Source: the human T2T-CHM13v2.0 reference genome, Homo sapiens. From it: DNA of 64,000 bases. Positions 15,505-60,020 of this stretch are shown here, one piece after another. The stretch is from the NCBI RefSeq assembly GCF_009914755.1, contig NC_060938.1; one strand, 5' to 3'. The position numbers and the translations under genes were made by a program. The notes under the pieces were generated by a model, which was given only the letters and a program-made list of their open reading frames with translations, did not search any database and was not told where the DNA came from. How positions within the stretch are numbered: position 1 is the first letter of the stretch; each line of letters begins with the position of its first letter.

Positions 15505-18645
<3,141 letters not shown>

Positions 18646-34400: not shown

Positions 34401-34969
34401 AATCAGACCCAGGCTAGGGGGACACTCCCAATGCCCCACTCGAGGATCCTGAGAATCCCTTCTTGTCACTTCCCCTCACCTCTCTCCTAGGCCTCCTTCT
34501 CCCTCTCCTTCGCACCTCCACAGACCCACCATATGAGCTCAGCCATGTTCTCTCGGTTGCAAGATTCACTAGTACCAATCCCTTGCCACCGCACGCCCAG
34601 GCCCTCCCTAGACCCACCCTCGCCCCGGGTCCCGTACAGCCCAGCGGGCGCCTGAGCCGGTGCCTTCCTGCAGAGGGCCGCCACCTGGCCGGGACGCTGA
34701 GCTGCAAGCACATCGAGACGTCGGCCGCACTGCACCACAACACGAGGGAGCTCTTCGAGGGCGCGGTGCGCCAGATCCGGCTGCGGCGGGGCCGAAACCA
34801 CGCCGGAGGCCAGAGGCCCGATCCGGGCAGCCCCGAGGGCCCTGCGCCACCTGCACGCCGCGAGAGCCTCACCAAGAAAGCCAAGAGGTTCCTCGCCAAC
34901 CTGGTGCCGCGCAACGCCAAGTTCTTCAAGCAGCGCTCCAGGTCGTGTCACGACCTCTCGGTGCTCTGA
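31346..34969 (+). CDS. REM2: GTP-binding protein REM2 (RGK family), join(31346-31448,32734-33075,33326-33399,34084-34291,34674-34969), 340 aa
   Basis: Exons sum to 1023 nt; G1 GESGVGKS, RGK-type G3 DIWE, G4 NKSD, G5 ETSA, 14-3-3 motif RRRGSMP, polybasic C-terminus ending RSRSCHDLSVL. Confidence 0.97.
31957..31998. repeat. (CA)n plus (TC)n microsatellite in REM2 intron 1
   Basis: CA run followed by TC run. Confidence 0.9.
32734..33075 (+). CDS. REM2: REM2 exon 2 (P-loop)
   Basis: tttag|AA GCA GAT...CCA G|gtatt. Confidence 0.95.
33326..33399 (+). CDS. REM2: REM2 exon 3
   Basis: cagcag|AG GAT ACC...GAA CAG|gtgag; DTYERRIMVD...DIWEQ. Confidence 0.93.
34084..34291 (+). CDS. REM2: REM2 exon 4
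   Basis: tgcag|GGG GAT GCA...GAG G|gtgtg; contains ILVGNKSDL. Confidence 0.95.
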
Positions 34970-35300
34970 GCCGCGGTCGCCATGGCCACTGCGGTCGCCA
35001 TGGTCACCGCGCCCTCCGCTCGCCCCCCCTCGCCCCGCCCCGCCCCCGTCCGGCTTCCTTGGTGGAGGCCGTCTAGGAAACCAAAAACTCCCAGGATGCC
35101 CCGGTGTGACCGCCGGGGGCGGCCCGGGGCCGCTCGGCGGCACCTCCACACCCGCCCCAACGCGTTCTCTGGAGCTTTGGGCCTCAGGGCGCCTAGAAGG
35201 CGAGGACGCAGACCTGAAGGCGGCCGGTGAGCGGGGCGGGTTCTGCTGGGTCGGGAAGAAAAATAATTCTGCAAGGTATTTTGTTTTTTATTAATTCGCG
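34560..35300. promoter_or_regulatory. CpG island over REM2 last exon and 3'UTR
   Basis: Very high CpG density; GC boxes at 35020-35050; X-box-like repeats at 34976 and 34994. Confidence 0.8.
34674..34969 (+). CDS. REM2: REM2 exon 5 coding part
   Basis: tgcag|AG GGC CGC...GTG CTC TGA. Confidence 0.96.
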
Positions 35301-35306
35301 CTTGGC

Positions 35307-35627
35307 CACCTCATCTGTAAAGAGATTCTAAAAGCAAGATCTGGAAAAGTGCTTCGTAGACTCCTTGACGGAGTTTGCCTCCTTTGTACGCTGCGTGAAC
35401 ATGCCTCACCTTTAAGAGAGTCTTAAAGGTAAAGACACGAAAACACTTCCTCCAGGGACCTTCCCGAAAACGTTCTGGCTCTCATCTGGTGCGGCATGTG
35501 TCCACTTTGCCTTTAAGGAGTTCTTAAAGGCAAGGGCCTGGAAGTGCTGTTCCTGAGATGGATTCTCTTGACTTACCAGTCCACCACGGCACTTCCCCTT
35601 TAAGGTTATTAAAGGTAAGGGGTGGAC
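35307..35627. repeat. Degenerate ~95-bp-period repeat with palindromic CCTTTAA(G)..(C)TTAAAGG core in REM2 3'UTR
   Basis: Palindromes at 35408-35430, 35507-35533 and 35597-35615; degenerate copy at 35314-35335. Confidence 0.75.
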
Positions 35628-35716
35628 AGACTTTCTGCATTCAGATAATGAGCAGTGGCAACCCCTTTTGGCCAGGGCCAGGGGGGCACCAGCAAGGGGC
35701 CACCCTTTCCCTTTTC

Positions 35717-35722
35717 AATAAA
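35717..35722 (+). terminator. REM2: REM2 poly(A) signal
   Basis: AATAAA followed by U/GU-rich sequence. Confidence 0.8.
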
Positions 35723-36576
35723 TAATTTTTGTACTGCCTCTGTTCACTTTTGACTCTGTTCTTGGAGTCTTTGGGGAAGGAATGGGTGTTGATGGAAACT
35801 GCTGTTACCCACCAGAAAACTCAGGCCCAGAGGAGCAAGGAACCTAACTCTCTAAGGAGGCTCTGGAACTGACTTGGCCTGGGGTAGTCCATGTCATAGG
35901 GCCACAGGCCCTTACAGATAATCAGGTCCACTTCTTGCGTTTGCCGATGAGAAAACAGGCTTGGAGAGGAACAGGGACCTCCTAGAAGTCATTTGTAAAT
36001 TAGTGACACAGTGGGACCAAATCTCTAGATTCTGAGCCTCATCTCCTTACCCCCACTCTATCCTGCAGGGAACAGGCTAGAGGCTACACTTAGCTCCCAG
36101 CGGTACTCAGCTTTGACTTGGGCTGGTTCAAAGTGGGGCCCATATCCACCAGGGAAGCCCATCAGCTGTGGCGTGATGGGGGTCTGTCTGTGCCTCCTCT
36201 GGCAGGGCTCCACAGCCCCAGCTGTCACCTGCAAAGCCCGTGTGAGTACTGAAACTGTCACTGCCTCCCCTGGGGACGCCCACGCCTGCTGCTGCCTGAG
36301 CCATGAGTTTGAACAAAGGGAGCAGAGGCAGCAGCTCCCCTCACCACCCCTAGACATACAATACAGCTACCTGAGCACCTGAGGGCCAGCCTCCATTCTA
36401 CCCCACACAGCCTCCCAGAACTTGATGGAAAGAGGGTTGCAATGCTTCCTGAGTCCTTGTAGCTGGGGAGGAGCCAAGGGGACCATCCCAGCATGGGTAC
36501 TTATAATAAGATGAATAATGGCCCTATCCTTAGGACTTTATACACTTTATCTGTTAATTCCTTAAAGACTATATAA

Positions 36577-45098: not shown

Positions 45099-45508
45099 AT
45101 CAGAAAGAGTAAAGCTGCATCTTCTCTCCTGGTGGAGTGAGGAAGGAATGGATGAGGCTGCTGGGAAAAGCAGCCTAGAAGGGGCAGCCTTTGGAAAGCC
45201 TGGTGCTGACTTTAACACTTTAATGAACAGCATTCATTCAATTCTACAGACATTTAATATGTGCAAGGCAAAGCAATCATGAGAAAGACATCCAAGTCTG
45301 GCCTCATCAGGCTGTAACCATCAAGTAATGGAGTTTTCAATAAAATAATTTTTATTGCAATTATTTTATTTACTAAATAAAAGTAGAGTAAGATGACCCA
45401 CAAGAGGACAAAGAATACTGAAAAGAGAGATTAACTCCACCTAGGAAAGCTTCAGGGTCTTAAAGGACAGGACTTTGATCAGCAGAAGGAGGAAAGGAAG
45501 AGAGATAG

Positions 45509-49792: not shown

Positions 49793-60020
<10,228 letters not shown>

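What the first reader, a model, noticed from the sequence alone, without database searches (positions are those of the whole stretch)
35307..35627. Periodic array of palindromic CCUUUAAG/CUUAAAGG hairpins in the REM2 3'UTR
Seen: three palindromes: ACCTTTAAGA-gag-TCTTAAAGGT (35408-35430, 10-bp stem), TTGCCTTTAAG-gagtt-CTTAAAGGCAA (35507-35533, 11-bp stem) and CCTTTAA-ggtta-TTAAAGG (35597-35615, with an outer GTCCACC/GGTGGAC helix). A decayed fourth copy is at 35314-35335. Centres are 95, 101 and 86 nt apart with diverged spacers, and flanks still align (gcaag..ctgga..aagtgct). The outer stem pairs differ between copies but still pair (A-T vs G-C), suggesting selection on symmetry. I recognise no repeat family here. 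Inference: either a multivalent RNA stem-loop element (localisation, decay or translation control of a neuronal mRNA) or a DNA array of inverted CTTTAAR motifs for a dimeric factor beside the CpG island.
Basis: partly seen in the sequence, partly recalled or inferred. Interest (0 to 1): 0.8.

Follow-up and report, generated by a model that had tools for sequence, protein, structure and literature searches.

The report
Hairpin repeat array in REM2 3'UTR
The tail of the human REM2 messenger RNA carries a one-of-a-kind run of four old repeat units, three of which keep the same short palindrome able to fold into a hairpin; it looks preserved rather than accidental, but what it does is still unknown.

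Summary
Three palindromes built on CCTTTAAG/CTTAAAGG lie at 35408-35430, 35507-35533 and 35597-35615. A decayed fourth copy lies at about 35314-35338. Start-to-start spacing is 94, 101 and 85 nt.

Chance does not explain it. The pattern occurs 3 times in the window against 0.02 expected. It occurs only 290 times in the 3.1-Gb genome, and consecutive copies occur nowhere else.

It is not a dispersed repeat or an Rfam family. I found no paper describing it.

It is an old local tandem duplication. The far flanks are at random-level identity. The inner 8+8 bp are identical in units 2 and 3: 0 of 16 differences against 28 of 43 elsewhere. This argues for constraint on the core.

Only one pair shows a double change, and 384 of 500 shuffles do as well. 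Both strands fold about equally well, so RNA-level and DNA-level function cannot be separated.

Cross-species conservation, the decisive test, could not be run with these tools.

Best guess: a cis-acting RNA stem-loop platform (about 0.4). Rivals are a non-functional relic (0.3) and a DNA palindrome site array (0.2).

The parts
35314..35338 (+). Unit 1: decayed copy of the palindrome core. It no longer folds.
   Evidence: 67% identical to the reference copy. A leave-one-out profile finds it at E=0.012. Fold -1.8 kcal/mol, z=+0.59. Not found by the covariance model R1.
35356..35378 (+). Unrelated 9-bp hairpin in the spacer between units 1 and 2.
   Evidence: Present in the global fold and listed by the stem-loop scan.
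35408..35430 (+). Unit 2 hairpin: ACCTTTAAGA / TCTTAAAGGT, 10-bp stem, 3-nt loop.
   Evidence: I16. Plus strand -10.5 kcal/mol, z=-3.07. Minus strand -18.5 kcal/mol, z=-6.71.
35505..35535 (+). Unit 3 hairpin: 11 perfect bp (35507-35533). A U.G pair and a C-G pair extend it to 13 bp. Loop of 5 nt.
   Evidence: I11. Plus strand -18.0 kcal/mol, z=-3.21. Minus strand -16.1 kcal/mol.
35540..35596 (+). Helix between the 3' flank of unit 3 (35540-35550) and the 5' flank of unit 4 (35586-35596).
   Evidence: (I18): 11 nt, 91% complementary. Formed in the folds.
35579..35627 (+). Unit 4 hairpin: CCTTTAA / TTAAAGG (35597-35615, 7 bp, 5-nt loop). Three further pairs and the outer helix GTCCACC / GGTGGAC enclose it.
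   Evidence: plus strand -18.8 kcal/mol, z=-2.18; minus strand -17.7 kcal/mol.
35499..35628 (+). Predicted four-way junction. Outer helix 35499-35506 / 35621-35628 encloses hairpin 3, the 35540-35596 helix and hairpin 4.
   Evidence: -53.8 kcal/mol, z=-3.08, 0 of 200 shuffles as good. The minus strand folds likewise: -50.1 kcal/mol, z=-3.77.
35612..35620 (+). Splice-donor-like AAG|GTAAGG in the 3' arm and flank of unit 4. Weaker copies lie at 35426-35434 (AAG|GTAAAG) and 35527-35535 (AAG|GCAAGG).
   Evidence: 7 of 9 matches to the donor consensus, all 7 contiguous, equal to REM2's own donors (7, 7, 7 and 5 of 9). Such 9-mers occur 0.64 per kb in the window, so this is not significant on its own.
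35444..35596 (.). Three GGAAGTG heptamers: 35444-35450 (-), 35540-35546 (+) and 35590-35596 (-).
   Evidence: 17 in 64 kb (12.5 expected), with three of them inside 153 bp here.
35717..35722 (+). AATAAA poly(A) signal of the annotated transcript, which ends at 35738. The hairpins lie about 100-310 nt upstream of it.
   Evidence: Read; transcript end taken from the hub's gene table.

Best explanation
The array is a single-locus, old tandem duplication in the terminal exon of REM2. It has four units of about 85-101 bp. The ancestral unit carried a palindrome with arms of about 13 bp and a 5-nt centre.

The spacers have diverged to random-level identity and unit 1 has decayed. Units 2-4 have kept the inner CCTTTAAG / CTTAAAGG arms almost unchanged.

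In the mRNA, these units fold into three stem-loops about 100-310 nt upstream of the poly(A) signal. Hairpins 3 and 4 are tied together by two more helices into a four-way junction.

Inferred, not shown: the three hairpins act in cis as a multivalent platform for a factor that binds stem-loops or double-stranded RNA. That factor would tune stability, translation or 3'-end handling of this activity-regulated mRNA.

Shown: the anatomy, the uniqueness in the genome, the contrast between core and flanks, and the predicted stability. Inferred: that the contrast reflects purifying selection, and that the selected object is the RNA rather than the DNA.
For: - Not chance: 3 pattern hits in the window against 0.02 expected.
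- Rare in the genome: 290 sites in 3.1 Gb, against 429 for the reversed control. Consecutive palindromes occur only here. Other places number 1 and 3, against control counts of 8 and 4.
- The 371-nt stretch matches only itself in the genome.
- Core versus rest, differences between units: U2-U3 0 of 16 against 28 of 43 (p=3e-6); U2-U4 1 of 16 against 29 of 45 (p=7e-5); U3-U4 1 of 16 against 24 of 45 (p=9e-4).
- 34 of 39 stem cells pair over the 13-bp model.
- Hairpin energies on the plus strand: -10.5, -18.0 and -18.8 kcal/mol, with z from -2.2 to -3.2.
- The 141-nt junction has z=-3.08, with 0 of 200 shuffles as good.
- The 371-nt array has z=-2.60, with 1 of 100 shuffles as good.
- The array lies inside an annotated 3'UTR exon (hub gene table).
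Against: - No covariation. Of 13 pairs, 1 has a double change, and 384 of 500 shuffles reach the same score.
- The pattern is conserved stems with a variable loop (GAG, GAGTT, GGTTA). This is the reverse of known protein-bound 3'UTR hairpin arrays.
- No strand signal. Hairpin 2 is much more stable on the minus strand (-18.5 against -10.5 kcal/mol). Hairpins 3 and 4 are only slightly better on the plus strand. The junction z-score is -3.77 on the minus strand against -3.08 on the plus strand.
- Unit 1 has been allowed to decay.
- No Rfam family matches.
- No paper on a REM2 3'UTR structure was found.
- Conservation outside human was not testable.
Confidence: 0.4

Rival explanations
1. Non-functional relic. 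A short palindromic segment was duplicated locally. The perfect arms are kept or restored by a mutational process, namely template switching at quasi-palindromes during replication, and not by selection.
For: - No covariation and no strand asymmetry.
- Unit 1 decayed and unit 4 is partly eroded: 7 bp, with a C-to-A change in the 3' arm.
- Homology of the spacers cannot be demonstrated. The duplicated piece may therefore always have been short, and the array younger than the spacers suggest.
- Template switching is reported to create and maintain hairpins and to give apparent compensatory changes. I saw only the search listing and abstracts for 10.1101/2021.04.15.439925 and PMC5453318.
Against: - Template switching perfects each palindrome on its own. 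It does not explain why three units keep the same 8-mer (0-1 differences in 16) while the loop and the outer stem differ at 5-9 of 15 positions between the same units.
- Homogenisation by gene conversion over 8-nt tracts that skip the loop is implausible (inference).
Confidence: 0.3
2. DNA-level element. The palindromes are inverted half-sites for a dimeric DNA-binding factor, possibly working with the nearby GGAAGTG motifs. They sit on the 3' shore of the CpG island that covers the last REM2 exon.
For: - Both arms are conserved in sequence while the centre varies. The 8-mers are 5 nt apart in units 2 and 3.
- The two strands are equivalent.
- GGAAGTG occurs three times in 153 bp, in both orientations.
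- CpG observed/expected falls from 1.10 (35200-35399) to 0.07 (35500-35699) across the array.
Against: - From memory, I could match the half-site CTTAAAGG to no transcription factor; no motif library was available.
- The spacer is 3 nt in unit 4.
- Centre spacings of 94, 101 and 85 bp give no constant helical phase.
- The palindrome is not enriched genome-wide: 290 against 429 for the control, and 249 against 759 for the tighter form.
- The RefSeq silencer rows in the hub's table that lie nearest (34528-34597 and 34838-35167) end upstream of the array. Three functional-element rows were not shown to me, so an overlap is not excluded.
Confidence: 0.2
3. Masked U1 site. The 3' arm plus its flank reads AAG|GTAAG, which resembles a splice donor, and the 5' arm sequesters it. 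Hairpin opening would expose U1 snRNP binding sites in the terminal exon and so affect polyadenylation or nuclear retention.
For: - Unit 4 matches the donor consensus at 7 of 9 positions, all 7 contiguous, as well as REM2's real donors. Units 2 and 3 match at 6 of 9.
- The idea would explain why both arms are conserved in sequence.
- Mouse Rem2 mRNA was among the Sm-RIP RNAs. Its Sm association depended on neither the predicted Sm site nor ATP (PMC12359035, passages read).
Against: - Donor-like 9-mers of this quality occur 0.64 per kb in the window, and only one lies in the 3'UTR.
- AAGGTAAR is not enriched: 9 against 6.1 expected.
- Unit 3 has GC instead of GT.
- I do not know whether mouse Rem2 carries the array.
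- The Sm-RIP paper does not link the signal to U1.
Confidence: 0.05
4. Fragment of an ancient transposable element or satellite that the tools here could not recognise.
For: - No Dfam or RepeatMasker search was available.
- The genome DNA search skips very common words and scores only the best candidates (note).
- The sequence files carry no soft-masking.
Against: - Only a self match for the 371 nt.
- TRF reports no array here.
- The tighter palindrome with its flank occurs 34 times in the genome against 54 for the control, and no other cluster exists.
- Compound patterns find consecutive palindromes only at this locus.
Confidence: 0.05

Closest known systems
Iron-responsive element array in the TFRC 3'UTR (recalled from established knowledge)
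   Same: Several similar stem-loops lie tens to a hundred or so nucleotides apart in one 3'UTR. They act together as a multivalent protein platform that sets mRNA stability.
   Different: IREs keep the loop and a bulged C and let the stems vary. Here the stems are kept and the loops vary. No IRE or any other Rfam model reaches its threshold.
MAT2A 3'UTR hairpins bound by METTL16 (search listing and abstracts only)
   Same: An array of related hairpins in a 3'UTR that arose by local duplication and regulates the host mRNA.
   Different: The defining loop nonamer is absent from the array. The nearest matches with up to 1 mismatch are at 35165 and 35913, both outside it. The stems here are AU-rich and conserved in sequence.
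Roquin/Regnase decay elements (recalled)
   Same: Short 3'UTR stem-loops that can occur in tandem.
   Different: Those have a pyrimidine-purine-pyrimidine triloop on a 5-8 bp stem. Here the loops are GAG, GAGUU and GGUUA on stems of 7-13 bp.
Quasi-palindromes shaped by replication template switching (10.1101/2021.04.15.439925 and PMC5453318; listing and abstracts)
   Same: Short, perfect inverted repeats with apparent compensatory changes and no strand preference.
   Different: That process acts within one palindrome. It does not predict three paralogous units keeping the identical 8-mer.
Palindromic binding sites of dimeric transcription factors
   Same: Conserved inverted half-sites, a free central sequence and strand symmetry.
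   Different: No known factor is matched. The spacer length is not constant (5, 5 and 3 nt). The site lies in a transcribed 3'UTR exon.

Membership tests
Any Rfam 15 RNA family | Covariance-model score at or above the family's gathering threshold | tested here: not met
   One search gave 4 matches with E up to 10, all far below threshold. The only one overlapping the array is SNORA8, 15.9 bits against 38, E=6.6.
Dispersed repeat / transposable element | Further recognisable copies elsewhere in the genome | tested here: not met
   the 371-nt query matches only itself (1 candidate, 1 scored); no other cluster of the palindrome. No Dfam search was possible, so very old families are not excluded.
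Satellite / VNTR | Head-to-tail copies similar enough for Tandem Repeats Finder | tested here: not met
   no TRF row in 35050-36100 at minimum score 30. Mean column identity of the units is 63%.
Structured RNA element supported by covariation | Compensatory changes beyond the shuffled expectation | tested here: not met
   of 13 pairs, 1 has a double change and 9 never vary. 384 of 500 shuffles reach the observed covariation score. Only three paralogous sequences were available, so power is low.
MAT2A-type METTL16 hairpin | Conserved loop nonamer (recalled motif) | tested here: not met
   no match with up to 1 mismatch inside 35300-35640.
microRNA precursor | Stem of roughly three helical turns (recalled) | tested here: not met
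   Stems are 7-13 bp. No miRNA model reaches threshold in the array.
U1-binding donor-like element in a terminal exon | Contiguous complementarity to the donor consensus, upstream of the poly(A) signal | tested here: inconclusive
   unit 4 has 7 of 9 matches, all 7 contiguous; units 2 and 3 have 6 of 9. The background rate is 0.64 per kb, so the motif alone proves nothing. Binding was not testable.
Conserved mammalian 3'UTR element | Sequence or structure conserved across mammals | not testable with these tools
   Only the window's own genome is held (note: 'no relatives here'). Metagenome scans were capped at 0.

The most novel reading that the evidence does not exclude
The three hairpins are a previously undescribed, selection-maintained multivalent stem-loop module in the mRNA of an activity-regulated neuronal GTPase. 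It would be read in a stem-sequence-specific way. In its boldest form, each stem masks a donor-like U1 site, so that hairpin opening gates U1/Sm association and 3'-end fate.
Probability: 0.25. Interest if true: 0.65.

Novelty: new member of a known kind. Interest (0 to 1): 0.4.

Why it matters
REM2 is an activity-regulated neuronal GTPase. The papers listed concern its mRNA expression and its induction by neuronal activity; none of those listed describes its 3'UTR.

If the core is under selection, this would be a compact, easily mutated cis-element: three 20-30-nt hairpins. It could be used to test post-transcriptional or 3'-end control of REM2.

It would also be a rare example of a hairpin array in which the stems, not the loops, carry the conserved information.

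If the core is not conserved outside primates, the array is a tidy example of how local duplication plus palindrome dynamics can mimic a structured RNA element.

Tried and rejected
- Rfam at relaxed E-value: nothing.
- TRF: no array reported.
- Genome-wide DNA search with the 371 nt: self only.
- Genome-wide pattern counts: the palindrome is not enriched. 290 against 429, 249 against 759, and 34 against 54 for the control.
- The pattern (half-site, gap, half-site) was uninformative: 1163 against 1308, dominated by an unrelated repeat family.
In the window it finds only units 2-4 and their reverse-strand echoes, not unit 1.
- A profile search for a fifth unit found none; the next best hit had E=1.6.
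- The idea that a two-unit block was duplicated (U1/U3 against U2/U4) was dropped. Pairwise differences summed do not alternate: U1-U3 30 of 60, U1-U2 34 of 60, U2-U4 30 of 61, U2-U3 28 of 59, U3-U4 25 of 61.
- Homology of the flanks in either orientation: not significant.
- Donor-like motif enrichment: not significant. The donor part was mis-indexed and was redone.
- The bacterial promoter/terminator scan is irrelevant to a human locus. It only re-listed the spacer hairpin.
- Literature:
  - No occurrence of the phrases 'REM2 3 UTR' or 'REM2 3 untranslated'.
  - None of the palindrome strings is in print; the only hit was an unrelated 13-mer in a phage paper.
  - No REM2 in the 15 listed papers on conserved RNA structures.
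  - No REM2 in the supplements I could search: 3 of 4 files of PMC3467077 and 1 file of PMC11310781.
  - The 12 papers listed (of 236 holding at least two of its six terms) do not mention Rem2, so that search turned up no Rem2 link to Staufen or Roquin.
  - PMC11721575 names Rem2 only as a predicted miRNA target (passages read).
They may hold the mouse Rem2 construct and its predicted sites, which bear on the U1/Sm idea.

Full report
**What is there**

- 35408-35417 / 35421-35430: 10-nt arms, perfect, 3-nt loop.
- 35507-35517 / 35523-35533: 11-nt arms, perfect, 5-nt loop.
- 35597-35603 / 35609-35615: 7 bp. Three further pairs and the helix GTCCACC / GGTGGAC (35579-35585 / 35621-35627) enclose it.

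The same call groups four direct copies of a 24-nt core at 35315, 35409, 35510 and 35595, with spacing 94, 101 and 85 nt.

A profile built from units 2-4 alone recovers unit 1 at E=0.012 in the 64-kb window. The other three are recovered in leave-one-out runs at E=5e-3, 1e-6 and 2e-4. A four-unit profile finds no fifth unit; the next best hit has E=1.6.

Unit 1 no longer folds: -1.8 kcal/mol, z=+0.59.

**More than chance, and unique**

- CCTTTAAN{3,9}TTAAAGG occurs 3 times in the window against 0.02 expected; 0 of 100 shuffles reach 3.
- In the whole 3.1-Gb genome it occurs 290 times, fewer than the 429 of the reversed control. The tighter CTTTAAGN{1,7}CTTAAAG occurs 249 times against 759.
- With the YAA flank there are 34 strand-hits against 54 for the control, and 4 of the 34 are at this locus.
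- Compound patterns ask for a palindrome followed within 40-101 nt by another half-site. They find both junctions of this array plus 1 and 3 isolated places elsewhere, against control counts of 8 and 4.
- The 371-nt stretch has only itself as a DNA match in the genome.
- TRF reports nothing here. Rfam gives nothing near threshold.

The array is therefore real, local and one of a kind in this genome. It is not a young dispersed repeat or a satellite. An origin from a very old transposable element cannot be excluded without Dfam.

**Anatomy**

- Aligned as units of about 95 nt, the four copies share 19 invariant columns out of 104.
- Homology is demonstrable only in the central 30-55 nt.
- In 56 local alignments of the eight 48-nt flanks, direct or reverse-complement, nothing beyond three trivial self-overlaps beats p=0.047 uncorrected.
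- The 'far' columns differ at 63-75% between units 2, 3 and 4, which is about random.
- Over the central 31 nt, units 2-4 fit a 13-bp palindrome: 34 of 39 cells pair.

Within that palindrome there is a sharp contrast. Differences between units, inner 8+8 bp against all other aligned columns:
- Units 2 and 3: 0 of 16 against 28 of 43, Fisher p=3e-6.
- Units 2 and 4: 1 of 16 against 29 of 45, p=7e-5.
- Units 3 and 4: 1 of 16 against 24 of 45, p=9e-4.

Even the loop plus outer stem differ at 9, 7 and 5 of 15 positions. I chose the core boundaries after seeing the data, so these p-values are optimistic. The contrast is still large.

Inference: either the inner arms have been under purifying selection in three paralogous copies, or the copies are younger than the unalignable spacers suggest because only a short piece was ever duplicated.

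**Predicted RNA structure**

- Plus-strand hairpins: -10.5, -18.0 and -18.8 kcal/mol, with z=-3.07, -3.21 and -2.18.
- Two more helices tie hairpins 3 and 4 together: 35540-35550 with 35586-35596 (I18), and 35499-35506 with 35621-35628.
- Together these give a four-way junction of -53.8 kcal/mol, z=-3.08, with 0 of 200 shuffles as good.
- The whole 371 nt has z=-2.60, with 1 of 100 shuffles as good.
- The hairpins lie about 100-310 nt upstream of the AATAAA at 35717-35722.

**Tests that could have favoured RNA, and did not**

- Covariation: of 13 pairs, 9 never vary, 3 only break, and 1 shows a double change (A-U, G-C, and a mismatch in unit 4). 384 of 500 shuffles reach the same score.
- Strand: hairpin 2 is far better on the minus strand (-18.5 kcal/mol, z=-6.71), because its two C.A mismatches become G.U. 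Hairpins 3 and 4 are slightly better on the plus strand. The junction folds on both strands, with z=-3.08 on the plus strand and -3.77 on the minus strand.
- Pattern of conservation: stems kept, loops varied (GAG, GAGTT, GGTTA). This is the reverse of IRE or MAT2A-type arrays. It is what one expects of inverted DNA half-sites, or of arms that also matter as single strands.

**Context**

- The CpG island over the last exon ends inside the array. CpG observed/expected is 1.10 at 35200-35399, 0.41 at 35400-35599 and 0.07 at 35500-35699.
- GGAAGTG occurs three times within 153 bp, in both orientations.
- The 3' arm plus flank reads like a splice donor: unit 4 AAG|GTAAGG, 7 of 9 matches and all 7 contiguous, as good as REM2's own donors. 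Such 9-mers occur 0.64 per kb in the window, and AAGGTAAR is not enriched.

**Literature**

- I found no description of this element.
- The phrases 'REM2 3 UTR' and 'REM2 3 untranslated' do not occur. 13 papers hold 'Rem2 mRNA' or 'Rem2 transcript'.
- The palindrome strings are not in print.
- REM2 is absent from the 15 listed papers on conserved RNA structures. It is also absent from the supplements I could search for two of them (one file of PMC3467077 was not searchable).
- One lead comes from PMC12359035 (passages read). Mouse Rem2 mRNA was among the RNAs identified in Sm-protein immunoprecipitations. Its association depended on neither the predicted non-canonical Sm site nor ATP.
- Template switching as a source of perfect hairpins and pseudo-compensatory changes is documented. 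I saw only the listing and abstracts.

**Explanation and rivals**

- I commit to a local tandem duplication whose hairpin core is maintained and acts in the mRNA as a multivalent stem-loop platform (0.4). This rests on the location in a 3'UTR exon, the stability of the predicted structure and the contrast between core and flanks.
- A non-functional relic shaped by palindrome mutational dynamics is nearly as likely (0.3). It explains the lack of covariation and of strand signal. It does not explain why three units keep the same 8-mer.
- A DNA-level array of inverted half-sites on the CpG-island shore (0.2) fits the symmetry and the two-orientation GGAAGTG. It has no candidate factor and the spacing is inconsistent.
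- A hairpin-masked U1 site (0.05) and an unrecognised ancient repeat (0.05) remain possible.

**What could not be done**

- No Dfam, CLIP, structure-probing, footprint or population data were available.
- The covariance model could not be run on the genome.

**Verdict**

There is internal evidence for constraint on the palindrome core. Function, and the level at which it acts, remain unproven.

Noticed in passing
window 34971-35047: Directly after the REM2 stop codon lie an 18-nt tandem repeat (CCGCGGTCGCCATGGCCA, 2.3 copies, itself partly palindromic) and a C-rich 5/10-nt repeat. Both are inside the CpG island part of the 3'UTR.
   Followed up: no
window 35608-35613: The C-to-A change that shortens hairpin 4 creates ATTAAA, the common variant poly(A) hexamer (recalled). 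It lies about 110 nt upstream of the annotated AATAAA. No annotated transcript ends there.
   Followed up: no
window 35497-35503 and 35313-35319: AUGUGUC lies just 5' of hairpin 3, and AUCUGUA lies in decayed unit 1. Both fit the loose 'non-canonical Sm-site' pattern AUNU(U/G)UN quoted in PMC12359035. That paper found mouse Rem2 association with Sm proteins not to depend on such sites.
   Followed up: partly
window 35399-35410 / 35488-35499: A 12-nt, 92% complementary pair bridges the 5' flanks of units 2 and 3 (I9). It is used in the global fold.
   Followed up: no
own genome C1:208552441 and C1:208553540: Two CCTTTAA...TTAAAGG palindromes lie 1.1 kb apart on chromosome 1. Only the first 50 of the 290 sites were listed, so other loose pairs may exist.
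   Followed up: no
own genome C3:91554108, C6:57499522, C6:61726893; C1:121532208, C5:51256761, C5:51263119: Identical palindrome-plus-flank strings recur at three places each. They are probably copies of duplicated or satellite sequence. Their loops are unrelated to those of the REM2 units.
   Followed up: no
window 17459-17484, 45339-45370, 52476-52498: Other perfect hairpins in the window with 10-12-bp stems.
   Followed up: no
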